DNA from: Escherichia phage vB_EcoM_G17
Strand: one strand, 5' to 3'
DNA length: 64,000 nucleotides
Sequence record: MK327931.1
The notes under the pieces were generated by a model. That model was not told where the DNA came from, did not search any database, and saw nothing but the letters and a program-made list of their open reading frames with translations. The number at the start of each line of letters is the position of its first letter. Within the stretch, counting starts at the first letter, position 1. The translations under genes were made by a program, and so were the position numbers. Below, piece by piece: positions 1,255 through 57,411 of this stretch.

Positions 1255-1500
1255 TTTGAATCTCCTAACTTTGTGGGCCGTCGCACCATTGCCGCCCTAC
1301 GAGATACATTATTGCAGTACTGATATACTTTGTCAATACTTTTTTTATTAATAGTTTTCACCCCACCAGCAGATAGTTACTCACCGTTATTAACTATATA
1401 TTTTAGATACACTCCTGCACCCAGTGGGCTAGTTTTTGTCTATGCGTATATAATAGCAAAGGGACTGACCGGAGTCAATCCCTTTTTTTATTCTTTTTTG

Positions 1501-1701: not shown

Positions 1702-1790
1702 AATGTTTTACTCCAAACTATTGACGGGAGAACTATTCCCCCGCTCTATGTAAAACATTATACATTACTGGTTAGTACTGTCAAATAGTT

Positions 1791-2048
1791 TTATGAAATA
1801 TCTTCGATGTAGTCGGCCCATTTCATTTTTTCAGTACTGTCAATGGCTACCGGATTATTTGGATCAAACCATTCACCATTCCCGCAATACATACCCACGG
1901 CAACGGTTTTATATCCATCCTGTGCAGTACTCCACGACATAGCACGATAGATATGGCCTTTAACTGGTTGCAATACTGGTAATGTTTTATGGTCTTCTAC
2001 GTAGGCCATAGCTTGAGGATTTACCCGATATTGTGTGAACTGTTCCAT
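1791..2048 (-). CDS. hypothetical protein (85 aa)
   Basis: Track ORF in early-gene series. Confidence 0.55.
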   Translation of the reverse strand: MEQFTQYRVNPQAMAYVEDHKTLPVLQPVKGHIYRAMSWSTAQDGYKTVAVGMYCGNGEWFDPNNPVAIDSTEKMKWADYIEDIS

Positions 2049-2124
2049 TATGTTTCCCCTTGTAGTTAGTAAAGTTATTACATCAGTACTATCAAGCTAT
2101 GTCAATAGTACTGAAATAAAACTT

Positions 2125-2349
2125 TTAGATTAGATTATTGATGCCGTTGATGGTAGACTCGCTTTCTTCTTTCTCCCATTGGCGGTAGTACTTCCATGCT
2201 TCATGATATGTGGCGATTAGTTCATCTTTTTGATCCTGAGTACATGCCAGTACTGAATCACGGTGAGCGGTTTTATAGATAGAATCGAATGATTTCTTCT
2301 CTTCTGCCAGGTTAGCTACTTCCCGCATCAGTTCATCAAAGTTAGCCAT
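2125..2349 (-). CDS. hypothetical protein (74 aa)
   Basis: Track ORF; promoter/hairpin module upstream (2350-2440). Confidence 0.55.
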   Translation of the reverse strand: MANFDELMREVANLAEEKKSFDSIYKTAHRDSVLACTQDQKDELIATYHEAWKYYRQWEKEESESTINGINNLI

Positions 2350-10586: not shown

Positions 10587-10796
10587 GATTTGTTTCCTTA
10601 TTACCAGGGGAAACCGTTTCCCCTTTCGATGTAAAACATTATACGCTTATTGAGATAGTTTGCAAGTACTTTTTAAAAATAGTTTTCAGTACTCAAACAT
10701 TATACAATAGATACACTCCTGCACCCTGTGGGCTAGTGAGCTATCTCTCAATGAATATATAATAGCAAAATGGCTGACCGAAGTCAACCACTTTTT

Positions 10797-24937: not shown

Positions 24938-25039
24938 GTGTAGTTCTCCTTATATTCCTTCTATAGTACACCAGTACTGAAAGGATGTCAAGGGTTTTCT
25001 TTATGGGGTAAATATGATATAATGAATAAGGAGGGATTT
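24938..25039. promoter_or_regulatory. divergent promoter region between the small-protein operon (minus) and the MLPF/RCC1-like array (plus)
   Basis: Minus: TTGACA-N17-TACTAT then AAGGAG; plus: TATAAT at about 25016 then AAGGAGGG and ATG at 25040. Confidence 0.55.
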
Positions 25040-26176
25040 ATGTTACCTTTTGTTAGAATGTTAAATTATGGGAACGTAGCACCAGAAAAACTAAAAGTTC
25101 GTGATATTGTTGCAGGTGCTAATTCATTATTACTAATAACCGAGGATAATGAATTATGGGTGCGTGGTAATAATTCGTATGGCAAATTAGGTATAGGAAC
25201 TGATACTATAGTGAATGTAACCGAGTGGACTAAAGTTAGAGATGATGTTAAGTTTGCTTGTGCTAGTAATTTAGTATGCGTTGTATTAACTGTAGATAAT
25301 AAAATTTTCTACTGTGGTGATGAATGGTTTGAATCTGGTGGTTCGACAAGTTCTAAAGTTGTTACATGGAAAGATGTTACGACACAATTTAGTGCAGTGA
25401 ATCTAAGCACAGTACGTGAAATGAAAATGACTTCTTATTGTGTAGGATTACTTACAAATGATAATAGATTATATGCTAAAGGATATGATAATAACCAATC
25501 ATTTGGTGGTTCAACAAGCAAAGTTAATGCTGTATTAGTTGCGTCAAATGTTTCAAAATTCTACACTTCTCTATCTGGTACTATATATTCTAGTACTACT
25601 GGTGGTTACTACCGCTGTGGTATAAGCAATACTGGAGCATTGGGTACTAGCACAAATTTAACTTCTTATAATTTGTACTCTGCTCCCGAATTTGCATCCG
25701 AATGTGCAGTTGGTATGTCAACATTAAACTCTGGTATATTATATTATGATACTAATGGTAGCACTAGATATGTTATAGCAGGTCAAAATAGATATTATCA
25801 ACTAGGTAATTCTTCTTCAAATACCACAAACGTATATTCGTATACAGAATTAACCGGATATAGAGGCAGGTTTAGGGATTTGTGGAGTGATATGAATAAC
25901 TCTGTTCTTTCTTTTGCTATAAGCACAGATGGCAATACTTTATATTATGCTGGTACTAACACTACACTATCTTCTGGTGACCCTGGTGTTGAATATTCAT
26001 CTACATTTAAAGAAGTACCACACGGGTTTAATGATATAACAAAGGCGGCATCGTTAGCCTATCTATCTATAGTGCAAGATTCAACGGGATGGTATTATTC
26101 TGGAAATGCAACTACGTTATATGGTTTGCCATCGAGTGATGAATTTATACCATTACCATTACCAACAATAATTTAA
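25040..26176 (+). CDS. MLPF-family RCC1-like repeat protein R1
   Basis: N-terminus MLPFVRMLNYGNVAP; repeated G-x-N-x-(Y/G)-(G/Q)-LG-x-G motifs (NNSYGKLGIGT, QNRYYQLGNSS); start trimmed from 25022 to the ATG with AAGGAGGG SD. Confidence 0.7.
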   Translation: MLPFVRMLNYGNVAPEKLKVRDIVAGANSLLLITEDNELWVRGNNSYGKLGIGTDTIVNVTEWTKVRDDVKFACASNLVCVVLTVDNKIFYCGDEWFESGGSTSSKVVTWKDVTTQFSAVNLSTVREMKMTSYCVGLLTNDNRLYAKGYDNNQSFGGSTSKVNAVLVASNVSKFYTSLSGTIYSSTTGGYYRCGISNTGALGTSTNLTSYNLYSAPEFASECAVGMSTLNSGILYYDTNGSTRYVIAGQNRYYQLGNSSSNTTNVYSYTELTGYRGRFRDLWSDMNNSVLSFAISTDGNTLYYAGTNTTLSSGDPGVEYSSTFKEVPHGFNDITKAASLAYLSIVQDSTGWYYSGNATTLYGLPSSDEFIPLPLPTII

Positions 26177-26182
26177 ATACAG

Positions 26183-26211
26183 GCCAGTACTTGATACTGG
26201 CTTTTCTTTTT
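26183..26211 (+). terminator. Rho-independent terminator after R1 (GCCAGTA-N5-TACTGGC plus T-run)
   Basis: Inverted repeat followed by ttttctttttt; next promoter -10 TATAAT at 26226-26231. Confidence 0.6.
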
Positions 26212-26247
26212 TGTATTAAATATAGTATAATGAATAAGGAGGGAAAT

Positions 26248-27450
26248 ATGTTACCTTTTGGAAGAATGGTTAAGTACGCAAATATTGCACCAGGTCCAGA
26301 ACCTGTAGAGTTCTCAGATGTTTTACAACAACATTATACAAACTGTATGTATCTCCATAACCCAACTAATACTTTATATGGTTATGGTAGTAATAACTTT
26401 TACCAATTTGGTCTTGGGAATTCAGCAGCAGTTTCGTCATTTACAGTACTTGCAAGGAACTGTGCAGCCTTTTGGCTTGGTGTTCAAGGTTCATTGATGA
26501 TTGATTTGGATAATAAAATATACTACACTGGGTCGGTTGGTGCATTTTCTGATTATGGAGATGCAACACCTGTTAATGGTTATTTGACAACATGGACTGA
26601 TGTTACTGTTGCATTTAATAAAATAGGTGTTATGGCTAATATGATCAAGAGTGTATATATAGGTGAAAGTACTAGAATATTATTAACCGATGGTAGAGTA
26701 ATTGCGTGTGGAAGAAATACTAATGGTGAATGTGGCTCTGGTAATAAAAATTCCATCCCTACACTCACAGTTATGACTAATATGGGTGAAGTTACACATA
26801 TGGCATGTTCATTACAAGGAACGCACTATATCAAATCAAATAAAGATGCATGGTTTTGTGGTAAGGATAACTTTGGTGAAAGTGGATGTGGTGGTAGTTT
26901 TGTTGTATATTTGAACAAATTCGTGATTAGTAATGTAGAACATATTAGTACTACATACGATGTTACTTGGTGGTTTACTACTGGTGGGCCTGTATATTAT
27001 AGCGGGGCTAACAGTTCTGGACAAGCTGGTAATGGTACGACTACATCGGTAAATCAGCTAACACCAATTAGGAACACATCGGTCACGGTTGATGTAAGTA
27101 AGTACAGTACTTTTATTTGTCCAAGTAATATGGGAAATGCATCAATTGGTGCACCTATGGCACAATACGCACCATATGTTAGAAGTAGTGGTGCTAACTC
27201 ATATGGTCAAGAAGGTAATGGAACTAATACATTAGTTAGAACTTGGAATATTTTTAATCTTAGTGCAATAAGTGGTGGTTATGACAATGTTCTTATGGCA
27301 TCTAAAGATTGGAGCAGAACCATAATAATTACTAAAGATTATAAATTATATGCATGTGGTGGCTGGAATGGTAGTGGTGGTAGATTACCTGATGGCACTT
27401 ATAGTATTACTACACTAACATTAATGCCAACGCAGTTATGGCAACAATAG
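26248..27450 (+). CDS. MLPF-family RCC1-like repeat protein R2
   Basis: MLPFGRMVKYANIAP; motifs SNNFYQFGLGN, RNTNGECGSGN, ANSYGQEGNGT; start trimmed from 26191. Confidence 0.7.
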   Translation: MLPFGRMVKYANIAPGPEPVEFSDVLQQHYTNCMYLHNPTNTLYGYGSNNFYQFGLGNSAAVSSFTVLARNCAAFWLGVQGSLMIDLDNKIYYTGSVGAFSDYGDATPVNGYLTTWTDVTVAFNKIGVMANMIKSVYIGESTRILLTDGRVIACGRNTNGECGSGNKNSIPTLTVMTNMGEVTHMACSLQGTHYIKSNKDAWFCGKDNFGESGCGGSFVVYLNKFVISNVEHISTTYDVTWWFTTGGPVYYSGANSSGQAGNGTTTSVNQLTPIRNTSVTVDVSKYSTFICPSNMGNASIGAPMAQYAPYVRSSGANSYGQEGNGTNTLVRTWNIFNLSAISGGYDNVLMASKDWSRTIIITKDYKLYACGGWNGSGGRLPDGTYSITTLTLMPTQLWQQ

Positions 27451-27458
27451 GAGGGAAT

Positions 27459-28568
27459 ATGTTACCTTTTGGAAGAATGATTAGGTATGGAAATATTGTC
27501 CCTGGTCCTAAAAAAATAATTAAAGTTGGTGCTTCTACCCAAGGCCAATTCTTATTGACTGATTCACATGATTTATATTACATAGGTAGAAATCAAGGTG
27601 GTGAATCTGGAAATGGTAATACCAACACGGTGTCTTCGTGGACATTAGTAAGTGCAGATGTTTCTAATTTTTTCGTGGGTGATCGTACACTTGTTATTAT
27701 TAAAAATGATAATACGATATGGACATCAGGTCAAACGTACTGGTTCTCATCTTCTACAACTACTTCTTACAGTACTGTATTAGTTGAAAGAACTAATTGG
27801 TTTACCAATGCTATACCAGTAAGTGAAATTGCTAATATTGTATGCACAAATGGTTTAATATTTGTACTTAGCACTAATTCAGTACTCTATGGTGCAGGAG
27901 ATAATGGATATCGTGGTTCTTTGGGTATTGGTTCATCATCAATTTACACATTAACTCAATGTGCTACGAACGTTCGTAAAGTAATGACCAATGCGAATGA
28001 TAGTATGTATCTTACATTAGATAATAAGCTATATAGTTCTGGATGGAATAGTAGTGGGCAGCATGGTACGGGGAACCAAACACAAATTAACACTTGGGGA
28101 TTGCGTAGTTCTGGTGTAATCGATGCAGCCATTGGTGGTAATGCATTAAATTACTATAATGGTACATCATATTTCGTATGTGGTCAAACTCCAAACTTTC
28201 TTAGTTCAGGTACGACTACATTCCGTGCAGTTCCTTTAAGTACTTTGCCTAATAGTTCTCCATTGTTTATGACGAATTCACCTGCCTTAAATACTGCTAC
28301 ACAAATGGTAATTACTAGTACATATCAGAAGGGTGTTGGGGCGAACCGTGGTTTGGGATTAAACAATTCTCAAACTGGTGCTATATATAGTGCTACCAAT
28401 TTACAATTACCCGTTGAAGTTAGTGAGATTAGGGATGTTCTTTTTAGTGATGGTTTGACATCGATATTAACCAAAAATGGAGACGTGTATAGTACTGGAT
28501 CGTATTACGCCATTCCAGGTGCAATCGAGGATGTTGCAGTCTTTACTAAAATTGATTTACCAAAATAA
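27459..28568 (+). CDS. MLPF-family RCC1-like repeat protein R3
   Basis: MLPFGRMIRYGNIVP; motifs RNQGGESGNGN, DNGYRGSLGIG, WNSSGQHGTGN; no terminator between R2 and R3 (co-transcribed). Confidence 0.7.
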   Translation: MLPFGRMIRYGNIVPGPKKIIKVGASTQGQFLLTDSHDLYYIGRNQGGESGNGNTNTVSSWTLVSADVSNFFVGDRTLVIIKNDNTIWTSGQTYWFSSSTTTSYSTVLVERTNWFTNAIPVSEIANIVCTNGLIFVLSTNSVLYGAGDNGYRGSLGIGSSSIYTLTQCATNVRKVMTNANDSMYLTLDNKLYSSGWNSSGQHGTGNQTQINTWGLRSSGVIDAAIGGNALNYYNGTSYFVCGQTPNFLSSGTTTFRAVPLSTLPNSSPLFMTNSPALNTATQMVITSTYQKGVGANRGLGLNNSQTGAIYSATNLQLPVEVSEIRDVLFSDGLTSILTKNGDVYSTGSYYAIPGAIEDVAVFTKIDLPK

Positions 28569-28574
28569 CATAAT

Positions 28575-28604
28575 GCCAGTACTCTGTACTGGCTTTCTTA
28601 TTTG
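28575..28604 (+). terminator. Rho-independent terminator after R3
   Basis: GCCAGTAC-tct-GTACTGGC then T-rich tract. Confidence 0.6.
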
Positions 28605-28638
28605 TATTAAATATAGTATAATGAATAAAGGAGGGAAT

Positions 28639-29808
28639 ATGTTACCTTTTGGAAGAATGATTAAGTACGGAAATATTGCACCTGCTAAACCAAATATTAA
28701 AAAAATACTTGCTAACAACTATAATGTTGCTGTTTTAACAAACAGTGGTGATTTATATGTGCGTGGTGAGAATGCAAATGGTCTTTTGGGTTTAGGTCAC
28801 AAAAATACTGTTACTACATGGACTTATAGTACTTCTGGTGTTCAAGATTTTTGGATGGGAGCCACGACGATAGTTCTTAAGAAAAGCAATGATGAAATAT
28901 GGTACAGTGGAAGTTCAACAACTGTTGGTATGAAAGGGGCAGCAGTATCAATATGGACTTCTGCTATGCCAACATTCGATACATTAACATTACCAATATT
29001 AGATATAGCAGTTAGTTATCAGACTACAAGTGTGTTACTGTCAGACCAAACAATATGGAGTACTGGAGTGGGGTCAGATGGTCAGTTGGGTGATGGGACA
29101 ACAACTAACAATATTGCTGGTAAATTCGTCAAAAGTACTGTTCCGGCCGCAGCAAATCAATTACCTGTTAAATTGTTTGCAAGTAATTTAATGCACGGTT
29201 ATGTTACAAACCAAGGATGGCTATTTTATACAGGAAGAGTAAATGCAGTTACAAGTTCAGGAAGTAAGTTATATACTATATATTATGGTGCTCCTACCAG
29301 CTTAAGAAATACAATTAATATCAAGTACTACACGGAGAATGGTACTTCAATGGCAATGGCAATTGGTACTGATCCAAATGGAAAAACCATCATCGCAAAT
29401 GGCGGTTCGAGAATATTTGGTGCACAAGCAGATGGGACAAATGGTTCTCTCAATGATTATAGAGCATTTGAGGTTCAAACTGCTTCACTAATGCCACCCG
29501 GTGATGTAGTAAGCATTGCTAACAATACTTCATATTATAACCAAGTTATTGCTACAACAGATGGTATATATTGTTGCGGCTACAATCAATCTTCAGAAGC
29601 TGGTATGTTAGGTATTGGTACATCTACCAATGCATTGGTATATACCAAAGCAATCGTGCCTGATGGGTTTGATTATAGTAAGTCGCAGATGGCAGGTGGG
29701 TATAACCGAACTTATATAACTGATGGTAATTTTGTATATAGCACAGGGACAAATGTCACATATGGTGGCGTTAGTAGCTTAGAATTTGTATTAGATTCAC
29801 CAGTTTAA
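28639..29808 (+). CDS. MLPF-family RCC1-like repeat protein R4
   Basis: MLPFGRMIKYGNIAP; motifs ENANGLLGLGH, VGSDGQLGDGT, YNQSSEAGMLGIGT; start trimmed from 28477. Confidence 0.7.
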   Translation: MLPFGRMIKYGNIAPAKPNIKKILANNYNVAVLTNSGDLYVRGENANGLLGLGHKNTVTTWTYSTSGVQDFWMGATTIVLKKSNDEIWYSGSSTTVGMKGAAVSIWTSAMPTFDTLTLPILDIAVSYQTTSVLLSDQTIWSTGVGSDGQLGDGTTTNNIAGKFVKSTVPAAANQLPVKLFASNLMHGYVTNQGWLFYTGRVNAVTSSGSKLYTIYYGAPTSLRNTINIKYYTENGTSMAMAIGTDPNGKTIIANGGSRIFGAQADGTNGSLNDYRAFEVQTASLMPPGDVVSIANNTSYYNQVIATTDGIYCCGYNQSSEAGMLGIGTSTNALVYTKAIVPDGFDYSKSQMAGGYNRTYITDGNFVYSTGTNVTYGGVSSLEFVLDSPV

Positions 29809-29814
29809 ATATAT

Positions 29815-29845
29815 GCCAGTACTCTGTACTGGCATTCTTATTTGT
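29815..29845 (+). terminator. Rho-independent terminator after R4
   Basis: GCCAGTAC-tct-GTACTGGC then attcttatttg. Confidence 0.55.
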
Positions 29846-29879
29846 ATTAAATATAGTATAATGAATAAAGGAGGGAAAT

Positions 29880-31028
29880 ATGTTACCTTTTGCAAGAATG
29901 ATGAATTATGGGAATATTGCCCCTGGTAAGGATAGGCGTTTTAAAATATATTCAAGTGATTCTATGTATCTTCATGATACTTATACTAATAAGTTGTATG
30001 CATCTTCTGCGACGAATTGGGGTACTGGAACAGGTGTAGCATCGAGTAAATTTATTCTTTGTGCAGAGAATGTTAAACGAGTTCTATTGGAAGATAACAG
30101 TAGTAGTTGTCAATTGTATGAAGAGAAAGGTACTGGAAAAGTTTTTATCACTGGTAACACGAAGGCATTCACTGGTGTAACTGATACAAAAACTTTGTGG
30201 ACGGACTGTACTACGTGGATAACATCAGGTGGTATTAATGTTTCTGATATAAAATACATGAGTAGTTTTAATGATATGAAGGTGAATTTGATAACAAACG
30301 ATGGTACGTTGTATTGTTGTGGAGTTAACAATAACTCGAACCTATCATCATTTGGTGATGGTACAAACATTAATTCTTTTAACACATTCAAAAGGGTAGA
30401 TACTATAACTTCGGTTAAAAAGGCAGTTGGTAACATATACCTAAAAGAAGATAATACTTTATGGGGTTGTGGTTTTAACTATTACTATCAGTTAGGTACA
30501 GGTAATCAAACTTCTATTACTGGGGTGACGATGATTGCTTCGGATGTTATAGATTTTGATGTAAGTTATCAAAGTACATTTTTTATTAAATCGGATAATA
30601 ATTTGTACGCTTGTGGTAAACAGTTCGGTGCACAATACGGGAACGAATTTGGCACAGGTGGTACTTCTTCATCTACCGATATACAATACAAAACTCCGAC
30701 ATTATTGAGTTCAGGAGTTTATACTCTATATACTTGTGTTAGTAACATGGCATCACATATAGCTAAAGGTGATGAAGTTCTATACGCATCTGGGTCGAAT
30801 GGATTTGGTCAATTAGGTGTTGGTAATAATATTAATCAGTACTCATATACTCCTTCGTATACTTCGTTTAATAGTTCGTGTAATTTGGTACGCACTCCAT
30901 CTGGTTCACTTATACTTACGGACACTGAGCAATTATATTATTGTGGGTATGCTATGGTAGTAATGGGGGGAATTGCTGGACAAAACATTCTTAGTTATAC
31001 AGAAGTTGATATGTCATTTATACAATGA
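29880..31028 (+). CDS. MLPF-family RCC1-like repeat protein R5
   Basis: MLPFARMMNYGNIAP; motifs FNYYYQLGTGN, SNGFGQLGVGN. Confidence 0.7.
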   Translation: MLPFARMMNYGNIAPGKDRRFKIYSSDSMYLHDTYTNKLYASSATNWGTGTGVASSKFILCAENVKRVLLEDNSSSCQLYEEKGTGKVFITGNTKAFTGVTDTKTLWTDCTTWITSGGINVSDIKYMSSFNDMKVNLITNDGTLYCCGVNNNSNLSSFGDGTNINSFNTFKRVDTITSVKKAVGNIYLKEDNTLWGCGFNYYYQLGTGNQTSITGVTMIASDVIDFDVSYQSTFFIKSDNNLYACGKQFGAQYGNEFGTGGTSSSTDIQYKTPTLLSSGVYTLYTCVSNMASHIAKGDEVLYASGSNGFGQLGVGNNINQYSYTPSYTSFNSSCNLVRTPSGSLILTDTEQLYYCGYAMVVMGGIAGQNILSYTEVDMSFIQ

Positions 31029-31034
31029 TTTAAT

Positions 31035-31063
31035 GCCAGTACACTGTACTGGCTTTCTTATTT
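31035..31063 (+). terminator. Rho-independent terminator after R5
   Basis: GCCAGTAC-act-GTACTGGC then T-rich tract. Confidence 0.6.
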
Positions 31064-31099
31064 GTATTAAATATAGTATAATGAATAAAGGAGGAATTT

Positions 31100-32242
31100 A
31101 TGTTACCTTTTGCAAGAATGATGAATTATGGGAATATTGCACCAGAACCAAAACCTCTATTTAAAAATAGATTACAAGCAAATTATAATACTCGTTTTTA
31201 TTTGCATGTTAATGGTGACTTGTACTGGTATGGTTCATCTTCATTTGGACAAGGTGGTAATGGTTCATTACAATCATCCACCGTATGGACCCGTGTGAAT
31301 AATAATATTGAACGTTACTGGGGTGGTGTTCTTGGTTCCATTGCCATTAAGAATGATGGAACTATTTGGTTCACAGGTGCTAGTATAGTAATGCCACAAA
31401 TCGGAACAAATACAAATGGGGTTTGGATTGATGTAACCCAGTACTTCACTGATTTTGGTGTCAGTGCTGATGATATTGATGGTATTGCTGTTGGGCAGAA
31501 TTTGCGTGTATTTTTAAAAAATGGAAAATGGTTCTACTGTGGTACTGGCGAAGCTGGTGTATTTGGTAACGCGTCAACAGCTAATGTCACATCGTTCAGA
31601 TACAGCACTATAGAAAATGTTAAAAGTTATGGCTGTTCTTTGCTCAGTACTGGGTTAGTACTTGATGATGGCTCCTATTGGTATGCAGGAAATACTGTTG
31701 CTCCTGGTAGTACAAAAACATCAAATATATTAAGTTTTACAAAAGACAATACGATCACCAATGCTATACAAGCTGTAAATACATACCGTACTTCATATAT
31801 ATTTCTTAATGATGGTTCAGTGAAGGTTGCTTCACCAAATGCATATGGTCAAGCTGGTGTAGGTACAGTATCAGCAGTACCAATGAGTACATTAATTCCC
31901 AATTTATCATTCCAAGGTGAAATAGAGTTGGTGGGTGGTTTATCCAACAACGAAGGGAATGGATGTGTTGTTAAAAATAATAATAAGTTATATACTTGTG
32001 GTCGAAATACCTATGGTCTATGTGGTGTTAATCAAACATCCGAAAATATACTAACTTTCACCGAAATGGTTCTTGATGCATTAGAAGGAAGACGAATTTC
32101 AGGCTTCGTAAATGATAATTTCTATTCAATGATAATTGATGAAAATAACAATTTGTATATGTGTGGTTTGGCTGAACTTGGAAATGTTCCAGTCAATAGA
32201 GTTCCAACAAGGGTTCCTGATTCACTTCTACCGTGGAAATAA
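31100..32242 (+). CDS. MLPF-family RCC1-like repeat protein R6
   Basis: MLPFARMMNYGNIAP; motifs SSSFGQGGNGS, PNAYGQAGVGT, RNTYGLCGVN. Confidence 0.7.
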   Translation: MLPFARMMNYGNIAPEPKPLFKNRLQANYNTRFYLHVNGDLYWYGSSSFGQGGNGSLQSSTVWTRVNNNIERYWGGVLGSIAIKNDGTIWFTGASIVMPQIGTNTNGVWIDVTQYFTDFGVSADDIDGIAVGQNLRVFLKNGKWFYCGTGEAGVFGNASTANVTSFRYSTIENVKSYGCSLLSTGLVLDDGSYWYAGNTVAPGSTKTSNILSFTKDNTITNAIQAVNTYRTSYIFLNDGSVKVASPNAYGQAGVGTVSAVPMSTLIPNLSFQGEIELVGGLSNNEGNGCVVKNNNKLYTCGRNTYGLCGVNQTSENILTFTEMVLDALEGRRISGFVNDNFYSMIIDENNNLYMCGLAELGNVPVNRVPTRVPDSLLPWK

Positions 32243-32248
32243 TATAAT

Positions 32249-32278
32249 GCCAGTATCAAGTACTGGCATTTCTTTTTG
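32249..32278 (+). terminator. Rho-independent terminator after R6
   Basis: GCCAGTA-tcaag-TACTGGC then T-rich tract. Confidence 0.6.
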
Positions 32279-32312
32279 ATTAAATATAGTATAACAAATA
32301 AAGGAGGGAATT

Positions 32313-33500
32313 ATGTTACCTTTTGCAAGAATGATGAATTATGGGAATATTGCCCCAGTACCACTTCAAATTAAGAAAATAATCCCAACTGATTTAGATG
32401 TTGTGGTTCTGTATACGGATGGTCAACTATATGCACGTGGGAATAATAGTTTTGGGAAATTCGGTAGAGGAAACAACACTGCATTAAAATCATGGACATT
32501 AATTAGAGAAAACGTTAACGATTGCTGGCTTACACAAGGAACTTTATTAGTAAAAGACAATGACTCAAATTATTATTACTGTGGATATGGTAGTCATATT
32601 GGTTTATCAACTAGTACTACTACGTTTTTAAGTTATAACCAATATATTCAAAATTTGTACACACAAAGTTCAAGTACTTCAATTAAACAGATGTATGGAG
32701 GTACTACGTGGTTTACTTTCTTAATGGACAATAATACAATATGGAGTACAGGGTGGAACAGTGCTAGACAATTCGCCGATGGAACGGGAACTACTTATGA
32801 AATAACCGATGGTTCATTTGTAAAAGCGGTCACACCTAATGTTGATATTGCACAAATACAGTCAACAAATAACTGTGTATTGTTGTTTGATAAACAAAAT
32901 AATTTATATATTGGTGGTGTTACATCCGGTATAAGTTCCGCGACTACATGGACTTCATATAATCAATATACTTTATATCAACCAAATACAACATACACAA
33001 AAACGTTACAATACACAGGATGCTCAACTGGTGCAGTAAGTGCTTTAGTTGAAAATCCAAATACAGGAGCACGTCAGTTCCTTGTCGGTGGGTTAGCTAA
33101 TAATGGGGCATGGGGAAATAACACTACATCTAGCTCTGTTAATGGAGTTTTAGGAAATAACAGTACGACGTTACCACCCGGTACTTTGTATTCAATTCAT
33201 ACTGGATACCCACCACAATCTAGTATACTAATTACGAGTACTGGTGTATATGCAACTGGTTTAAATGCCAGTAGTTATGCTGGTTCATTGGGTATTGGTA
33301 CTAGTGCAACTGTTGGTAAGTTTACTGCATGTCCAATGCCTACACAAATAACATATTCTATGTATGATAAAATAAAAATATATAGAGGTTCATATCGTAC
33401 ATTTCTAACTGATATGAAAAATATATATTCAACCGGAACTTATGATGATGGTGGTCCTAGTACAACTAGATATGTACTAGATACACCCCGACAATTATAA
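32313..33500 (+). CDS. MLPF-family RCC1-like repeat protein R7
   Basis: MLPFARMMNYGNIAP; motifs NNSFGKFGRGN, NASSYAGSLGIGT. Confidence 0.7.
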   Translation: MLPFARMMNYGNIAPVPLQIKKIIPTDLDVVVLYTDGQLYARGNNSFGKFGRGNNTALKSWTLIRENVNDCWLTQGTLLVKDNDSNYYYCGYGSHIGLSTSTTTFLSYNQYIQNLYTQSSSTSIKQMYGGTTWFTFLMDNNTIWSTGWNSARQFADGTGTTYEITDGSFVKAVTPNVDIAQIQSTNNCVLLFDKQNNLYIGGVTSGISSATTWTSYNQYTLYQPNTTYTKTLQYTGCSTGAVSALVENPNTGARQFLVGGLANNGAWGNNTTSSSVNGVLGNNSTTLPPGTLYSIHTGYPPQSSILITSTGVYATGLNASSYAGSLGIGTSATVGKFTACPMPTQITYSMYDKIKIYRGSYRTFLTDMKNIYSTGTYDDGGPSTTRYVLDTPRQL

Positions 33501-33507
33501 TATAATA

Positions 33508-33537
33508 GCCAGTACTCAGTACTGGCTTTTCTTTTTG
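33508..33537 (+). terminator. Rho-independent terminator after R7
   Basis: GCCAGTAC-tca-GTACTGGC then ttttctttttg. Confidence 0.6.
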
Positions 33538-33572
33538 TATTAAATATATTATAATGAATAAAGGAGGGAATT

Positions 33573-34310
33573 ATGTTACCTTTTGGAAGAATGATTAAGT
33601 ACGGGAATGAAATTGAATATAAGCCACATGGTGAACAATTAATCACGACAATAGGAACAACACAATTTACAGTTCCTGCTGGCGTTACCGAAATATCAGT
33701 ATGTGTTATTTCGCCGGGTGGTCAACGTGGTGCTGGCGGCGGCTTATCGTGGCGTAATAATATTCCGGTTACTAGTGGTGAGTACTTAAGTGTTTCTCTT
33801 ACGCATACCAACACTACTACACCAGTTGAAAACGGTTTATATCGTGGAACTGAAAAACTATGTGTTAGCTTCACTGGTGCATATACGGTTGGTGGACTAG
33901 GTGGAAAAGCTGCTAACGCTATTAATGATGGTGGTGGTAATGGTGGCAATACTGGTGTAAGTGGTGGTGCAGTCATTGGTGGTGGTGCTGGTGGCTACAC
34001 AGGTAAAGGTGGTAACGGAGATGCAATCACTGGTGAAAATGGTGCTGGCGGCGGCGGGGGCGGTGGTACATTCTATAATACCTCGTTCATTGGTACGGGT
34101 GGTGGTACTGGTATCATTGTTCAAGGTGCTAATGGTATTGGTGGTAGCTACGGTGGTTCATATAATGGTGGTGCTGGTAGTGGTGGTGCTGGTAAGATGT
34201 ATGGTGGTGGTGGTAGTATATGGGATAATTCTTCTTATACGGCTGCTGGTGGTGGTGCTGTGCGAATAATATGGGGAAATGGGAGATATTATCCTAACAA
34301 TTCAGTATAA
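33573..34310 (+). CDS. MLPF-family glycine-rich protein R8 (245 aa)
   Basis: Same promoter/RBS cassette and N-terminus MLPFGRMIKYGN, but body is Gly-rich (GGAGGYTGKGGNGDAITGENGAGGGGGGG...). Confidence 0.65.
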   Translation: MLPFGRMIKYGNEIEYKPHGEQLITTIGTTQFTVPAGVTEISVCVISPGGQRGAGGGLSWRNNIPVTSGEYLSVSLTHTNTTTPVENGLYRGTEKLCVSFTGAYTVGGLGGKAANAINDGGGNGGNTGVSGGAVIGGGAGGYTGKGGNGDAITGENGAGGGGGGGTFYNTSFIGTGGGTGIIVQGANGIGGSYGGSYNGGAGSGGAGKMYGGGGSIWDNSSYTAAGGGAVRIIWGNGRYYPNNSV

Positions 34311-34317
34311 AATATAG

Positions 34318-34347
34318 GCCAGTACAGAGTACTGGCTTTTCTTTTTG
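34318..34347 (+). terminator. Rho-independent terminator after R8
   Basis: GCCAGTAC-aga-GTACTGGC then ttttctttttg. Confidence 0.6.
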
Positions 34348-34380
34348 ATTAAATATAGTATAATGAATAAAGGAGGAAAT

Positions 34381-43883: not shown

Positions 43884-43916
43884 ATTATAGCAAAAAGGGC
43901 TGACCGAAGTCAACCC
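43884..43916 (-). promoter_or_regulatory. hybrid terminator/promoter cassette: hairpin GGGTTGAC-ttcg-GTCAGCCC plus T-run whose stem carries -35 TTGACT; -10 TATAAT at 43884-43889 (rc)
   Basis: Read on minus strand; 18 nt spacer; one of about 13 copies of the ctgaccgaagtcaacc element. Confidence 0.6.
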
Positions 43917-45271: not shown

Positions 45272-45336
45272 TTGTTACCTCTTGTGTTGATGAAATAATT
45301 ATAGCAAAAAGGGCTGACCGAAGTCAACCCTTTATG

Positions 45337-46551: not shown

Positions 46552-46618
46552 GTATTCATCCTCTCGTCTTGATGAAATAATTATAGCAAAAAGGGCTGAC
46601 CGAAGTCAACCCTTTTCT

Positions 46619-51046: not shown

Positions 51047-51115
51047 TACTTTATCCTCTGTAGTTAATACCAACATCATAACAAAAAAGGCTGACCGAAG
51101 TCAACCCTTTTATTA

Positions 51116-51535
51116 TCATTTACAGTTTTCTATAACTATTGCACGTTTTAGTATTTTACTTTCATAAACATACTTAAGATGACCTTCTTCACGAATACGA
51201 TTGAACACATATCCTAGTTTATCTTTTAGTACTGAAGCGGTATCAATGTCAAGATTAACTTCAACCCCTCCTGTTAATTTAACTTTATATGTAAAGCTAA
51301 AAGCATCACCAGATTCAACCAATGGGACTACTTGTTCATACGTATTCAACATAACTCGTTCATCATTAACTAAATTATATATTACTATATCACAAGTTTT
51401 TACCCCAATTTCCTCTAAGGTAGGAGCATTGTCTACTATAACATCTTTTACTGTATTAGCAACCTGTTTAGCATCTGCTGCATATACATTAAAACTAAAA
51501 AGTACTAAAATAATACTTAAAAAAATCTTTTTCAT
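51116..51535 (-). CDS. secreted protein (signal peptide), 139 aa
   Basis: N-terminus MKKIFLSIILVLFSFNVYAADAK. Confidence 0.55.
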   Translation of the reverse strand: MKKIFLSIILVLFSFNVYAADAKQVANTVKDVIVDNAPTLEEIGVKTCDIVIYNLVNDERVMLNTYEQVVPLVESGDAFSFTYKVKLTGGVEVNLDIDTASVLKDKLGYVFNRIREEGHLKYVYESKILKRAIVIENCK

Positions 51536-51878: not shown

Positions 51879-52130
51879 TCACCGAAACTCTTTTTCTATT
51901 CCCATTACATCAGTCTTACGCTCAGATAGTATACCTGAAGTATATGAATCTTTGTTGTCAAACGCATTAAATCCAATAGTTCTGTCGGTGTCGTGTATTA
52001 TTCCTTTTGTGTATGAGGTAGTATAGAACTCCCCATTTCTGAAATCCTGCCTTGCTACGGAGCAATGATAATCTGCACCATAAGCAGTACTGGAAAATAA
52101 TACAATTCCAAATATAATATATTTTTTCAT
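51879..52130 (-). CDS. secreted protein (signal peptide), 83 aa
   Basis: Track ORF 51879..52205 trimmed to MKKYIIFGIVLFSSTAYGADY; GAGGGA SD. Confidence 0.5.
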   Translation of the reverse strand: MKKYIIFGIVLFSSTAYGADYHCSVARQDFRNGEFYTTSYTKGIIHDTDRTIGFNAFDNKDSYTSGILSERKTDVMGIEKEFR

Positions 52131-52201
52131 TGTAATCCCTCTTCTTAATTCCTCTTTTGTATTTACAAAAAAAGGCTGACCGAAGTCAACCTTTAGTTTT
52201 A

Positions 52202-53746
52202 TCATTTACCGTATTTGCTCATGATGTCCTTTTCCCAATGAGTTACGTTACCGTTATCGTAATCTTTAAAGGAATTATCAAGAGTAGTTAATGCATATTC
52301 GTATGCTTCAGGTGATTCAATGTCAACATCATCAGCACCATTTACTAAATCAGTCCATGCTTTTTGTAGTTTACGAGCATTTTTACCAACATTACTTTTA
52401 ATCCAACTAATGTTTTTGTTGATACTCTTATTATCAGCACCAGCTTTTTTACCAATATCGGATATCCACATCATTAGCTTTTGGAGTTCATGAATGGAGT
52501 TGTCGTTCATTTCACGATCTTTAGCCAATTCTGCTTCCATGCCATCAGTATCAGTACCATCTTTAGAACCTACATCAATTCCATGTTTAGCTAATAGTTT
52601 ACCAAGTTCAAAGAATGCTGCCTCAGCAGGGAAGTCATAACCTTTGTCTTTGTAGTTGTTCCATGCACTATCAAACTCATCTACAAATCGGTTGGCATAA
52701 TCTGGATTGTCCACGAGAGCTTTGTACACTGCCATTGCATGTTCAAATCCTTCTTTGTCAGAACCAAACTCTCCCATTTCTGGACGATGAATGTAACCAT
52801 CCATATCAACAGTATCAGGTAAATCATCATGAGATGTTTCAGCATCTTTCTGGTCAACTGCACCTTCTTCATCTGCACGAACTAAGTAACCATCTTTTGA
52901 TACTTTCTCACCATGTTCAGCTTCATACTTTTTCATAGTATTGAATGCAGAATTCATAACAGTGATGAATCGAGACTTCTCACCTGGTGAGTAAGAATCT
53001 AATGCTGCTTTAATAGCATCATGTACTAATTGAATCTTATCATCTTTGCCTTCAAGACGATTTTCTAACTTAGCAAGAACATTCTTAACTTGCTGGGCGT
53101 TAGCACGGTCTTCTTTACCTATACGGTTAACAGTATGGAGGATGCTTTCAAGACTTGCTTCTTCAGCAGTCGCTTCTTCTTGTCCTTCAAGTGCACGCAT
53201 GATAGTACTGAATACTTCAGTTGGTTCAGTACTGGTATTTCCACTCATTGCATCAAGTACAGCTTGTGCTTTGACTTTTAATTCTTCTTTAGGTACAGAT
53301 TGCAATTCTTTCACAATACCTTGGATAAGTTGTGGTTTATTAGCAAAAATCTTACCTAACTTATCAGACAATTCTTTGACAGGGTTAACCGCCTTTGGTG
53401 CTTCTTGTTTTGGTTCTTCTTTCGCAGGAGAAGACTTTTCTTTTTCTTCACGTTCCATATCAGCTAGGCGTTGTTTTTGTGTAGCATTAAGAAGTCCCAA
53501 TGAATTAACATAACGTAGCTTTTCTAGCTCAGTCATGTTCTCAGTACTCTTAACTTCACCTGCTTCTGCGTTTGCTTTACCAGCTAGACCAGTTCCTTGG
53601 TTACGTGATCCACGTGAACCTTGACCTGCTTGATAACTATTTGGTCGGCGGTTGCGTTCACTCCATTTATCCGAGTGACCAGCCATGTTACCACCATTTT
53701 TATCAGTAAAATTACTTGGCATTTGATTTCTCTCCATAGATTTCAT
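52202..53746 (-). CDS. large charged hypothetical protein (about 506-514 aa)
   Basis: Longest ORF in window; Lys/Glu/Asp-rich; start ambiguous (53746 or 53722); shares motifs with 53992..54375. Confidence 0.65.
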   Translation of the reverse strand: MKSMERNQMPSNFTDKNGGNMAGHSDKWSERNRRPNSYQAGQGSRGSRNQGTGLAGKANAEAGEVKSTENMTELEKLRYVNSLGLLNATQKQRLADMEREEKEKSSPAKEEPKQEAPKAVNPVKELSDKLGKIFANKPQLIQGIVKELQSVPKEELKVKAQAVLDAMSGNTSTEPTEVFSTIMRALEGQEEATAEEASLESILHTVNRIGKEDRANAQQVKNVLAKLENRLEGKDDKIQLVHDAIKAALDSYSPGEKSRFITVMNSAFNTMKKYEAEHGEKVSKDGYLVRADEEGAVDQKDAETSHDDLPDTVDMDGYIHRPEMGEFGSDKEGFEHAMAVYKALVDNPDYANRFVDEFDSAWNNYKDKGYDFPAEAAFFELGKLLAKHGIDVGSKDGTDTDGMEAELAKDREMNDNSIHELQKLMMWISDIGKKAGADNKSINKNISWIKSNVGKNARKLQKAWTDLVNGADDVDIESPEAYEYALTTLDNSFKDYDNGNVTHWEKDIMSKYGK

Positions 53747-53808
53747 TTTTTCTCTATGTCTATATTTATAGTATAAAGAAAAGGCTGACCGAAGTCAACC
53801 TTATTTTG

Positions 53809-53922
53809 TTACTTAGATTGTTCTTGTGCAGGTGGATTTACTTTTTGATCCACTACATAGAATACACCACCAACCAGTACTGCGGCGATGAGTGCAGCAA
53901 CTACAAATTTCAAACCTTGCAT
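53809..53922 (-). CDS. hypothetical membrane peptide (37 aa)
   Basis: Hand-translated (MQGLKFVVAALIAAVLVGGVFYVV...). Confidence 0.3.
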   Translation of the reverse strand: MQGLKFVVAALIAAVLVGGVFYVVDQKVNPPAQEQSK

Positions 53923-53991
53923 ATATGATACCTCAGTTATATTGAGAAGTTATGATACAACAAAGGGCTGACCTTAGTCAACCCCTTTTTA

Positions 53992-54375
53992 TTACTTCTT
54001 GAACTTATGTTTTTCACTTTCGATTGCATTCACGATTTCATCATGAATTTTACGAAGATTGTGAGTTTTCTTGAGAGAATCATGCAATGCACGGAATGCA
54101 GAGTGTACAGTTGCTTTAAAGTGCTCTTTAGGAGTTACTTTAAGTTTCTCGATAATATCACGTACATAGATTGGGTGATCTTCAAACACACGGTTTAGCT
54201 CGTGGCCTAGAGACTCTAGACTAAACGCTTTTTCACGTGAAGGACGATCATGTGCAAGACTTTGGTCAGGTTTTAGAAGACCTAGTGAATCTAGATATTT
54301 GTGCTTATGTGCATTGTCTAGACCAGAAATATCAACATCATGGGATGGATCTTTCTTATTCCATTTATCAACCAT
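53992..54375 (-). CDS. hypothetical protein (127 aa), related to N-terminal part of 52202..53746
   Basis: KYLDSLGLL and LKVTPKEHFKA resemble YVNSLGLL and LQSVPKEELKV in the large protein. Confidence 0.5.
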   Translation of the reverse strand: MVDKWNKKDPSHDVDISGLDNAHKHKYLDSLGLLKPDQSLAHDRPSREKAFSLESLGHELNRVFEDHPIYVRDIIEKLKVTPKEHFKATVHSAFRALHDSLKKTHNLRKIHDEIVNAIESEKHKFKK

Positions 54376-54490
54376 TTTTATAACTCCTATAAGAGATAAA
54401 TTTTACTATAATATTTATAGTTCCTGTGTCATTTATATGAACTGACATAGAAAATTATATCATATTAAAAATGGTTGTCCCAAAGTTAAA

Positions 54491-57165: not shown

Positions 57166-57219
57166 AATTAAAATCCTCTAATTTATTAAGAGAATTATAA
57201 CAAAAAAGGCTGACCGAAG

Positions 57220-57411
57220 TCAACCTTTGTTTTGAAGTTCTTGAACTAATTGTCGTACTTCGTTAATATTTTTACACTGCTTTACAGTGAAGTAATCATA
57301 CTTACGACCATAGGTTCTTGGGTCATCACCTTCCATATACTGCTGCACATCAAAGATTTGTAAGTAGGGATGCTGCATAACACGAATATTATCACTTTGA
57401 TAAATCAACAT
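57220..57411 (-). CDS. hypothetical protein (63 aa)
   Basis: Track ORF 57220..57465 trimmed to MLIYQSD (AAGGA SD). Confidence 0.45.
   Translation of the reverse strand: MLIYQSDNIRVMQHPYLQIFDVQQYMEGDDPRTYGRKYDYFTVKQCKNINEVRQLVQELQNKG

What the first reader, a model, noticed from the sequence alone, without database searches (positions are those of the whole stretch)
52202..54375. Large charged protein with a small paralogous fragment gene nearby
The 514 aa Lys/Glu/Asp-rich protein (52202..53746) and the 127 aa protein (53992..54375) share short colinear motifs (YVNSLGLL versus YLDSLGLL; LQSVPKEELKV versus LKVTPKEHFKA). The large protein is highly charged and low in hydrophobic content, consistent with an internal virion or ejected protein or a scaffold. 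The pair may represent a duplication with domain loss.
Basis: inference. Interest (0 to 1): 0.4.

Follow-up and report, generated by a model that had tools for sequence, protein, structure and literature searches.

The report
Paralogous late virion proteins, jumbo phage
Two neighbouring genes of the E. coli jumbo phage Sharanji are true paralogs built on one shared helical module; their counterparts in related phages are known particle components of unknown function, so the finding is real but largely ordinary, with a possible link to the unidentified "inner body" in the capsid of closely related phages (121Q, phAPEC6).

Summary
The window is Escherichia phage Sharanji (Asteriusvirus). Both ORFs exist as described (gp148, 514 aa annotated, probably 506 aa from Met9; gp150, 127 aa). 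The claimed similarity is real: BLASTP E = 2e-8, shuffle z = 8.8, reciprocal clean profiles E ~1e-11, HHalign 96.9% over 110 columns.

The shared unit is an amphipathic K-Y-x-x-x-L-G-L-L helix plus a four-helix bundle (D1). It is the core of a narrow family restricted to RaK2-like jumbo phages, whose simplest and probably ancestral form is ~170 aa. B lost a basic, disordered N-terminal segment. A kept it and gained ~320 aa of acidic helical modules.

Orthologs were detected in purified virions by MS in phAPEC6 (both proteins), RaK2, CBB and GAP32. The only two TATAAATA (T4-type late promoter) motifs in the 64 kb sit directly upstream of A and B. The same motif precedes the capsid and scaffold genes in phAPEC6.

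A is a recombination hotspot, with block swaps around an invariant D1 while flanks stay 93-100% identical. A natural Salmonella-phage variant lacks most of A. B is under strong purifying selection.

No known fold or family matches. An internal-head role (inner body or ejected) is plausible but unproven; a scaffold role is unlikely.

The parts
52202..53746 (-). ORF A = Sharanji_gp148 as annotated (514 aa); probable true start at Met9 = 53722 (506 aa, 56.3 kDa, pI 5.1)
53537..53722 (-). A N-segment (res 1-62 from Met9): basic (pI 9.8), Gly/Ser/Arg/Asn-rich, predicted disordered, with invariant R-N-Q-G-T-G; absent from B; exists as two shuffled allelic types in the genus
   Evidence: (pLDDT <55)
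53387..53536 (-). A helix carrying the family motif E-K-L-(K/R)-Y-x-N-S-L-G-L-L, then a Pro/Glu/Lys-rich disordered linker
53177..53386 (-). A domain D1 (res 113-182): four-helix bundle shared with B; the most conserved part of A (57-97% identity in all long homologs); recombination breakpoint at its C-terminal edge
52898..53176 (-). A middle helical domain (res 183-275), variable; an optional ~100-aa module M1 is inserted just before it in UB and JNE01-type alleles
52553..52897 (-). A module M2 (res 276-390): acidic and aromatic; present in Sharanji, 121Q and JNE01, absent from phAPEC6 and UB alleles
52205..52552 (-). A C-terminal helical domain (res 391-506, pLDDT ~90), found in all long forms
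53763..53770 (-). TATAAATA late-promoter motif upstream of A (40 nt before Met9)
53783..53800 (-). Hairpin GGTTGACTTCGGTCAGCC after gp149: terminator whose stem carries a -35 TTGACT; here the -10 slot (TATACT) abuts the late motif
52171..52194 (-). Terminator hairpin immediately downstream of A's stop codon
53992..54375 (-). ORF B = Sharanji_gp150 (127 aa, 14.8 kDa, pI 9.05): disordered N-terminus, K-Y-L-D-S-L-G-L-L helix (res 21-30), then a four-helix bundle
53998..54228 (-). B four-helix domain (res 50-126, pLDDT ~85), homologous to A's D1
54412..54419 (-). TATAAATA late-promoter motif, 36 nt upstream of B's ATG
54454..54483 (-). Sigma70-like site TTGGGA-N18-TATAAT with extended TG, upstream of B's late motif (consensus match only)
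53966..53983 (-). Hairpin GGTTGACTAAGGTCAGCC (terminator) directly after B's stop codon
53809..53922 (-). gp149, a 37-aa hydrophobic peptide gene between the paralogs; not a family member and not detected in virions

Best explanation
A (gp148) and B (gp150) are paralogous, late-expressed virion proteins of a family confined to RaK2-like jumbo phages. SHOWN: both contain one homologous unit, an amphipathic K-Y-x-x-x-L-G-L-L helix followed by a ~70-residue four-helix bundle (D1). The simplest and most widespread form of the family is a ~170-aa protein made of a basic disordered N-segment plus this unit. B lacks most of the N-segment. A keeps it and carries ~320 aa of acidic, all-helical modules. 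Each gene is its own unit, bracketed by hairpin terminators and preceded by TATAAATA, the motif that also precedes the capsid and scaffold genes of the genus. Orthologs are found in purified virions of four phages. A is a recombination hotspot in which blocks are swapped around an invariant D1, and most of A is missing in a natural variant. B is almost invariant. INFERRED: D1 plus the LGLL helix is the part that docks the protein into the particle. This is the only part common to all three virion-detected forms and the only constant part of A. The basic N-segment probably contacts DNA, and A's variable acidic modules are accessory cargo. The most likely location is inside the head, embedded in the DNA, as a constituent of the bubblegram-visible inner body seen in the close relatives 121Q and phAPEC6 and/or as proteins that leave with the DNA. 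This would be analogous, not homologous, to T4 internal proteins and phiKZ/SPN3US inner-body and ejection proteins.
For: Paralogy. Family limits and forms: (only 35 representatives among 1.84 billion proteins). Virion presence by MS: phAPEC6 gp035c and gp037c (gene map), RaK2 gp275, CBB_38 and GAP32_032. Late expression: TATAAATA occurs twice in the window against 13.4 +/- 4.0 expected, both times upstream of A and B. The 7-mer ATAAATA also occurs only at these two sites. In phAPEC6 140-190 kb, 6 of 6 sites lie 16-47 nt upstream of gene starts on the coding strand, including the major head protein, scaffold, EndoVII and a virion protein. The motif is conserved upstream of A in 121Q, phAPEC6, EJP2 and UB's divergent allele, and RaK2 has ATAAATA. 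A gp55-like late sigma factor is encoded, and CBB authors proposed ATAAATA as the late promoter. Structure: all-alpha, disordered basic N-segment, helical domains on flexible linkers. Hotspot: neighbours 93-100% identical but A 53-87%, with breakpoints at the D1 edge. Dispensability of most of A: SD-2_S15 deletion. Inner body present in 121Q and phAPEC6, with unidentified components not homologous to phiKZ's. All-alpha composition and paralogous families are typical of internal and ejection proteins of giant phages (plus general knowledge).
Against: No experiment places these proteins in the head rather than on the tail, whiskers or capsid surface. No MS exists for Sharanji itself. A as a whole is acidic (net -22), which is not obviously suited to lying in DNA. 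No T4-type short targeting sequence or conserved early cleavage site exists. CBB_38's 56.6% coverage exceeds what D1 alone (~44% of the protein) could give, so the N-terminal half is not removed as a propeptide, unlike phiKZ/SPN3US proteins. In GAP32 and CBB the gene has a perfect sigma70 promoter rather than the late motif. Other virion-detected proteins (RCC1-like paralogs) lack the motif, so motif and virion status are not one-to-one. phAPEC6 authors favoured RCC1-like proteins as inner-body candidates.
Confidence: 0.5

Rival explanations
1. They are external accessory components of the particle, for example anchoring or decorating the capsid-surface network, the hexamer-centre fibres or the 'hairy' tail whiskers. 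A's variable modules would be exposed to the environment and diversify for that reason, like Hoc or fibre proteins.
For: phAPEC6 has several unassigned external densities and fibres. Segment-wise mosaicism in otherwise identical genomes is also typical of exposed proteins. Dispensability of A fits a decoration protein. A is acidic.
Against: The proteins are all-alpha small bundles on disordered linkers, with no Ig-like, beta-helix, collagen or long coiled-coil features. A capsid decoration protein present at MCP-like copy number should give higher coverage than 29-48%. The family also occurs in RaK2, where whiskers are not a described feature. The basic disordered Arg/Gly/Ser tail suits nucleic-acid contact better.
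Confidence: 0.25
2. They are head-assembly (core or scaffold-like) proteins needed transiently in the prohead, and residual amounts remain trapped in mature particles.
For: They are charged and helical, use the same late promoter as the scaffold and capsid genes, and a T4 gp21-type protease is present; capsid protein cleavage at LTE|S is inferred.
Against: The dedicated scaffold gp226c and the acidic core-like gp228c lie in the head-gene cluster. Coverage in mature virions is high (CBB_38 56.6%, gp037c 48%, RaK2 gp275 20 peptides) compared with the scaffold at 4.9%. No [LIVM]-x-E site is conserved across the family except VKE|L in A-type proteins. Most of A is deletable.
Confidence: 0.1
3. A is an SMC/SbcC-like 'chromosome segregation protein', as annotated for phAPEC6 gp035c.
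For: GenBank annotation of phAPEC6 gp035c, based on a weak match (E = 0.039).
Against: No SMC, SbcC or ATPase domain in Pfam at E <= 1 or NCBIfam. No Walker motifs. No PDB sequence or fold match. The match is most likely a composition artefact of charged helices.
Confidence: 0.02

Closest known systems
RaK2-like 'virion structural protein' family: RaK2 gp275 (ORF275), phAPEC6 gp035c and gp037c, 121Q gp201 and gp199, GAP32_032, CBB_38 (PHROG 20398 and 16530)
   Same: Direct homologs. A matches phrog_20398 at 1.8e-209 and phrog_16530 at 8.5e-38; B matches phrog_16530 at 6e-56. Same gene order in Asteriusvirus. Detected in virions by MS.
   Different: Sharanji's A allele has its own module combination (no M1, with M2) and is only 53-87% identical to orthologs in near-identical genomes. 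The A/B paralogy, the module map, the late promoters and the hotspot behaviour did not appear in the papers I read.
T4 internal proteins IPI, IPII, IPIII and Alt
   Same: Works-like analogy: non-essential proteins encoded outside the head-gene cluster and packaged into the head. A constant N-terminal part is joined to diverse remainders, and the loci vary between related phages (general knowledge of T4; CTS described). Here: constant N-module, variable C-terminal cargo, deletable A, T4-type late promoter, gp21-type protease in the genome.
   Different: No sequence similarity. The T4 targeting sequence is 10-20 residues and cleaved at L/I-x-E. Here the constant part is ~180 residues, has no conserved early cleavage site and appears to be retained (CBB_38 coverage). 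Head-internal location and ejection are unproven.
phiKZ / SPN3US inner-body and ejection proteins (phiKZ gp89, 90, 93, 95, 97, 162; SPN3US gp53, gp54)
   Same: Giant phages with a bubblegram-positive inner body. Abundant head proteins occur as paralogous families with long N-terminal regions that direct incorporation. 121Q and phAPEC6 have an inner body of unknown composition.
   Different: No homology (phAPEC6 authors; no PHROG cross-hit). The phiKZ-type A/S/G-x-E processing of 100-130-residue propeptides is not evident. RaK2-like phages use a T4-type protease and have no virion RNA polymerase or phage nucleus.

Membership tests
RaK2-like virion protein family (PHROG 16530 / 20398) | Significant sequence match to the family profiles | tested here: met
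   A: phrog_20398 1.8e-209 and phrog_16530 8.5e-38; B: phrog_16530 6.2e-56 and phrog_20398 1.2e-3; profile search
RaK2-like virion protein family (PHROG 16530 / 20398) | Physical presence in purified virions | not testable with these tools
   Shown by MS for orthologs in phAPEC6, RaK2, CBB and GAP32. B is 99-100% identical to the phAPEC6 and 121Q proteins. No proteomics for Sharanji.
T4-type late genes | TATAAATA promoter motif at a suitable distance upstream, on the coding strand, in a phage encoding a gp55-like sigma factor | tested here: met
   The only 2 sites in 64 kb lie at A and B. 6 of 6 phAPEC6 sites precede late or structural genes. The gp55-like sigma factor is phAPEC6 gp237c. Transcription itself was not measured.
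T4 internal proteins (IP/Alt) | Short N-terminal capsid-targeting sequence ending in L/I-x-E and cleaved by the prohead protease | tested here: not met
   No conserved [LIVM]-x-E in the first ~110 residues of the A family, and none at all in the B family
T4 internal proteins (IP/Alt) | Sequence or fold homology | tested here: not met
   No Pfam, PHROG or NCBIfam cross-hit; no PDB or BFVD fold hit outside the family
T4 internal proteins (IP/Alt) | Located inside the head and ejected with the DNA | not testable with these tools
   Needs head/tail fractionation and ejection assays
phiKZ-type inner-body / ejection proteins | Sequence homology to phiKZ inner-body proteins | tested here: not met
   PHROG hits are only to the RaK2-like families. 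phAPEC6 authors report that no phAPEC6 protein is similar to phiKZ inner-body proteins.
phiKZ-type inner-body / ejection proteins | Long N-terminal propeptide removed at a conserved x-x-E site | tested here: inconclusive
   One conserved candidate, VKE|L at residue 117, in 51 of 62 sequences of the mixed A4 alignment (long plus short forms). However, the site is absent in GAP32-type and B-type proteins, and CBB_38's 56.6% coverage exceeds D1's share of the protein. No peptide-level data are held.
phiKZ-type inner-body / ejection proteins | Paralogous families of abundant head proteins in a phage with a bubblegram-positive inner body | tested here: inconclusive
   Paralogy is met and an inner body is shown for 121Q and phAPEC6. 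Copy number and head location of these proteins are unknown.
SMC / SbcC chromosome segregation proteins | ABC-type ATPase head domains with long coiled coil | tested here: not met
   No such domain in Pfam or NCBIfam; the model shows short helical bundles, not a long coiled coil

The most novel reading that the evidence does not exclude
This family is the building material of a second, non-phiKZ type of phage inner body. D1 plus the LGLL helix would be the self-associating or portal-anchored unit, the basic N-segment would grip the spooled DNA, and B would be the invariant core subunit. A's freely exchangeable acidic modules would be cargo ejected into the host and diversifying under host-defence pressure. 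That would identify the unknown constituents of the 121Q/phAPEC6 inner body and reveal a T4-IP-like hypervariable effector system in jumbo coliphages.
Probability: 0.2. Interest if true: 0.65.

Novelty: new member of a known kind. Interest (0 to 1): 0.3.

Why it matters
The proteins themselves are already catalogued as virion proteins of unknown function, so the basic finding is ordinary. The follow-up adds concrete, testable structure:
- a defined shared docking module (D1);
- a map of swappable modules;
- evidence that A and B carry the only T4-type late-promoter motifs in this 64-kb window;
- a natural deletion showing that most of A is dispensable while B is conserved.

The protein composition of the inner body in 121Q-like phages is unknown, and the only published guess is the RCC1-like proteins. 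This narrow, RaK2-group-specific, MS-confirmed family is therefore a reasonable candidate to test. If D1 is a packaging handle, it could also be used to load foreign proteins into jumbo-phage heads, as the T4 capsid-targeting sequence has been.

Tried and rejected
- Pfam and NCBIfam: no match reached the curated cutoffs. The weak vRNAP_dom, NBAS, Tau95 and PuhC hits were rejected.
- PDB sequence profile: nothing significant.
- Foldseek against PDB with the A model: best E ~1, generic helical proteins such as serum albumin and designed repeats.
- Foldseek against BFVD: only family members. A 1306-aa Cronobacter phage A24 protein at E = 4.5e-3 with TM ~0.1 was not pursued.
- Exhaustive profile search of 1.84 billion representatives: no distant relatives outside the family.
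- A second D1-like repeat in A, suggested by BLAST HSP 2 (E = 0.003): not supported by profiles (i-E 0.016 to 0.6). Tandem D1 duplication is real only in other members (P0079, P0114, P0112).
- Conserved prohead-protease sites: only VKE|L at residue 117 of A-type proteins, and none shared with B-type or GAP32-type proteins.
- Sigma70-like promoter count at the locus is not above chance (9 against 10.8 +/- 3.2), so only the hairpin-embedded cassettes are noted.
- The SMC/SbcC annotation of phAPEC6 gp035c was rejected.
- Literature searches for localisation, peptide-level MS or recent cryo-EM of Asteriusvirus or RaK2 heads found nothing beyond phAPEC6 (2020) and Hua et al. (2017). Thomas et al. 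2012 (phiKZ) was not held.
Full report
IDENTITY OF THE WINDOW AND THE TWO ORFS

The region is 100% identical to Escherichia phage Sharanji (OR545507.1, Asteriusvirus, 350 kb) and 92-97% identical to slurp01, SHEFM2K, PBECO4 and 121Q; phAPEC6 matches at 95% over 94% of the query. ORF A (52202..53746, minus strand, 514 aa) is Sharanji_gp148. ORF B (53992..54375, minus strand, 127 aa) is gp150. A 37-aa hydrophobic peptide gene (gp149) lies between them.

All homologs of A begin 'MP...'. A GGAGAG Shine-Dalgarno sequence precedes that ATG. In phage EJP2 the upstream ATGs are out of frame. A therefore most likely starts at Met9 (window 53722; 506 aa). Residue numbers below count from Met9.

IS THE SIMILARITY REAL?

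Yes.
- BLASTP aligns A75-191 (annotated numbering) with B23-123 at 24% identity, E = 2e-8.
- The Smith-Waterman score is 85 against 36.1 +/- 5.5 for 1000 shuffles of B (z = 8.8).
- An HMM built from B-type proteins only finds A at E = 8.4e-11. An HMM built from long A-type proteins only finds B at E = 1.4e-11. HHalign gives 96.9% probability over 110 columns, A54-182 against B10-122.
- PHROG families cross-match: A hits phrog_16530 (B's family) at 8.5e-38.
- No other ORF in the window belongs to the family.

ANATOMY

AlphaFold2 models (for B, mean pLDDT 70; for A, mean pLDDT 74, pTM 0.29) are entirely alpha-helical.

B has a disordered N-terminus, a short helix carrying K-Y-L-D-S-L-G-L-L (residues 21-30), a disordered linker, and a four-helix bundle at residues 53-126 (pLDDT ~85).

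A has, in order:
- a basic (pI 9.8), Gly/Ser/Arg/Asn-rich, disordered N-segment (residues 1-62) with invariant R-N-Q-G-T-G;
- the E-K-L-R-Y-V-N-S-L-G-L-L helix;
- a Pro/Glu/Lys linker;
- the four-helix bundle D1 (residues 113-182);
- three further helical domains separated by acidic disordered linkers, ending in a confident C-terminal domain (residues 391-506, pLDDT ~90).

The N-module has pI 8.7 and the C-terminal extension has pI 4.8 with net charge -24. Neither protein has any Cys.

The unit shared with B is the LGLL helix plus D1. Alignment with intermediates shows that B retains 'DKW..K(N/D)' and 'PSHDVD' but lacks the first ~14 residues and the ~30-residue RNQGTG stretch.

FAMILY AND HISTORY

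The family is narrow. There are 35 representatives at 50% identity among 1.84 billion proteins, all of the same kind. All tblastn hits are in RaK2-like jumbo phages of Escherichia, Klebsiella, Salmonella, Erwinia, Serratia, Cronobacter, Pectobacterium, Yersinia and Xanthomonas.

- GAP32, CBB, BF, Yen9-04, pEa_SNUABM and XbC2 have a single ~155-177-aa form made of N-segment, LGLL helix and D1. It matches both A (residues 9-188, annotated numbering) and B.
- RaK2 and K64-1 have a long form only.
- Asteriusvirus has long A plus B, adjacent to each other.
- Munch, 7t3 and Kae01-type phages have a short form near one genome end and a B-type gene ~300 kb away. One 361-kb contig holds both P0098 and P0075.
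- P0078 (171 aa) joins an A-type N-segment to a B-type D1.
- D1 is duplicated in tandem inside single proteins in P0079, P0114 and P0112.

The most economical history is an ancestral ~170-aa protein that was duplicated. One copy (B) lost the N-segment, and the other (A) gained C-terminal modules. 'Duplication with domain loss' is therefore only half the story.

VIRION ASSOCIATION (LITERATURE)

- phAPEC6 is a close relative in the same genus: B is 99% identical, and A is 87% identical over 58% of its length.
- The phAPEC6 ESI-MS/MS virion proteome lists gp035c (46.4 kDa, 8 peptides, 28.8% coverage) and gp037c (14.8 kDa, 5 peptides, 48.0% coverage) (PMC7247149). The gene map shows that these are the orthologs of A and B.
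- RaK2 gp275: 20 peptides, 34.3% coverage (PMC3622015 Table S3).
- CBB_38: 9 peptides, 56.6% coverage. The CBB supplement marks CBB_038, GAP32_032 and RaK2 ORF275 as MS-detected orthologs (PMC5259590).
- The Sharanji paper contains no proteomics.

LATE TRANSCRIPTION UNITS

- TATAAATA, the T4 late-promoter consensus, occurs only twice in the 64-kb window against 13.4 +/- 4.0 expected. Both copies are on the coding strand, 36 nt before B's ATG and 40 nt before A's Met9, each in the context CTATAAATAT.
- The 7-mer ATAAATA is also found only at these two sites.
- In phAPEC6 140-190 kb, all six TATAAATA sites lie 16-47 nt upstream of gene starts on the coding strand: major head protein gp225c, scaffold gp226c, gp232, EndoVII gp234, virion protein gp238 and gp242. 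The gp55-like late sigma factor gp237c is encoded there.
- The motif is conserved upstream of A in 121Q, phAPEC6 and EJP2, and in front of the divergent UB allele. RaK2 has ATAAATA.
- The CBB and GAP32 authors had proposed ATAAATA as the late promoter.
- Each gene is followed by a GGTTGAC-NNNN-GTCAGCC hairpin.

A and B are thus two separate late transcription units inside a long run of small early-type genes, which includes a T7 gp0.7-like kinase.

Caveats:
- In GAP32 and CBB the single-copy gene has a perfect TTGACA-N17-TATAAT promoter instead.
- The virion-detected RCC1-like paralogs in the window have no late motif.

A IS A RECOMBINATION HOTSPOT; B IS FROZEN

Across 121Q, PBECO4, phAPEC6 and UB, the fourteen neighbouring proteins compared are 93-100% identical where matched. 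A is 84%, 84%, 87% (over 58% of its length) and 53% identical.

Region by region:
- D1 is the constant part (57-97% in all 46 long homologs).
- The N-segment occurs as two allelic types. The RaK2-like type is only 37% identical, yet it is found joined to a 97%-identical D1.
- A ~100-aa module M1 after D1 and a ~115-aa module M2 are each present or absent, and all four combinations occur: Sharanji (-,+), UB (+,-), phAPEC6 (-,-), JNE01 (+,+).

Sliding-window DNA identity shows sharp breakpoints inside the gene at the D1/middle boundary (~53177-53200), with a return to 99-100% just beyond the stop codon. B has stretches of 90-92% DNA identity but 99-100% protein identity, which indicates purifying selection.

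In Salmonella phage SD-2_S15 a clean 1,252-bp deletion (window 52195-53446) removes A residues ~93-506 and fuses residues 1-92 to the frame upstream of gp147. B is intact. SD-1_S14 and SD-6_S16 retain only A's first ~97 residues, like SD-2_S15, and SD-15_S21 retains fragments covering 38%. Most of A therefore seems dispensable. The caveat is that these 310-326-kb records carry many deletions. EJP2 lacks B next to A.

WHAT DOES IT DO?

Function must be inferred from context.
- D1 plus the LGLL helix is the only element common to the three virion-detected forms (short form, A, B) and the only constant element of A. It is therefore the likely virion-docking module.
- The basic, disordered Arg/Gly/Ser/Asn N-segment is suited to contact with nucleic acid.
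- A's acidic modules behave as exchangeable, dispensable cargo.
- 121Q and phAPEC6 show a 91 x 18 nm inner body by bubblegram. Its proteins are unknown and unrelated to phiKZ's; the phAPEC6 authors guessed the RCC1-like proteins.
- Giant phiKZ-like phages and T4 both pack paralogous, often non-essential internal proteins whose N-terminal parts direct incorporation.

I therefore favour an internal-head role (inner-body constituent and/or ejected proteins) at about 0.45-0.5. An external decoration or whisker-associated role gets about 0.25, and a transient assembly role about 0.1.

Against a phiKZ-style propeptide:
- The major capsid protein appears to be cut at LTE|S, which gives 37.2 kDa and matches the 37 kDa listed by Hua et al..
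- The family has no shared [LIVM]-x-E site.
- CBB_38 coverage (56.6%) exceeds D1's ~44% share of the protein, so the N-terminal half stays in the virion.

As a rough estimate of my own, a solid 91 x 18 nm protein rod is ~19 MDa. That would require several hundred copies of A or more than a thousand of B, and the available MS data neither support nor exclude such numbers.

VERDICT

These are members of an already catalogued but functionally blank family of virion proteins in RaK2-like jumbo phages. New here are the explicit paralogy and module map, the isolated late promoters, the hotspot-versus-frozen contrast, and the natural deletion of A. Interest is modest (0.3). It would rise if the family proved to be the unidentified inner-body material of this phage group.

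Noticed in passing
window, minus strand: 10772-10789, 43898-43915, 45312-45329, 46594-46611, 51089-51106, 52174-52191, 53783-53800, 53966-53983, 57208-57225: Nine copies of the hairpin GGTTGAC-TTCG-GTCAGCC (one has a TAAG loop), against 0.01 expected by chance. They act as terminator-plus-promoter cassettes: the -35 hexamer TTGACT lies inside the stem, and a TATAAT-like -10 follows ~17-18 nt later (perfect TATAAT at four sites). Before ORF A the -10 slot reads TATACT, which abuts the late motif TATAAATA.
   Followed up: partly
whole window: TATAAATA is strongly avoided (2 observed against 13.4 +/- 4.0 expected), and ATAAATA also occurs only twice, in a 32-41% GC sequence. This implies selection against stray late-promoter motifs in early and middle regions.
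   Followed up: partly
window 51879-52205 (-), Sharanji_gp147: The annotated 108-aa ORF overlaps A's terminator hairpin. 121Q annotates the shorter form (83 aa), which in Sharanji starts MKKYIIFGIVLFSSTAYG, a signal-peptide-like N-terminus. Sharanji's start is probably over-extended. gp145 (51116-51535) also begins with a signal-like sequence.
   Followed up: partly
window 53809-53922 (-), gp149; L009:4290-5063 in phage UB: A 37-aa hydrophobic peptide gene sits between the two late genes and has its own sigma70-like signal (TTGACT-N18-TATCAT). In phage UB it is replaced by a 257-aa gene with a weak treble-clef zinc-finger hit (DUF4379, E = 1e-3, below the cutoff), possibly a mobile nuclease. 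This is next to UB's highly divergent A allele.
   Followed up: partly
window ~25022-39077 (+): A tandem array of about twelve ~380-440-aa paralogous ORFs. The first has RCC1-like repeats (Pfam). Counterparts in phAPEC6 ('DNA condensation proteins' gp549-gp010) were detected in virions at low coverage and were proposed as inner-body candidates, yet none has a TATAAATA or ATAAATA motif upstream.
   Followed up: partly
L005 (GAP32) and L006 (CBB), 60 nt upstream of position 2501: The single-copy family member in GAP32 and CBB is preceded by a perfect sigma70 consensus promoter (TTGACA-N17-TATAAT) rather than the late motif, although the protein is abundant in CBB virions. Its timing of expression may differ between genera.
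   Followed up: no
L011 (Salmonella phage SD-2_S15) 1825-2415; window 52195-53446: A natural 1,252-bp deletion creates a 196-aa chimeric ORF: A residues 1-92 fused to the frame upstream of gp147 and running on through gp147. Salmonella-infecting Asteriusvirus records (310-326 kb) seem to carry many such deletions.
   Followed up: partly
L008 (phAPEC6) 1123-2298 (-), major head protein: Cleavage after KVMLTE (residue 43) would give 37.2 kDa, matching the ~37 kDa mature mass listed for 121Q. This suggests a T4 gp21-like L-x-E specificity for the prohead protease of the genus.
   Followed up: partly
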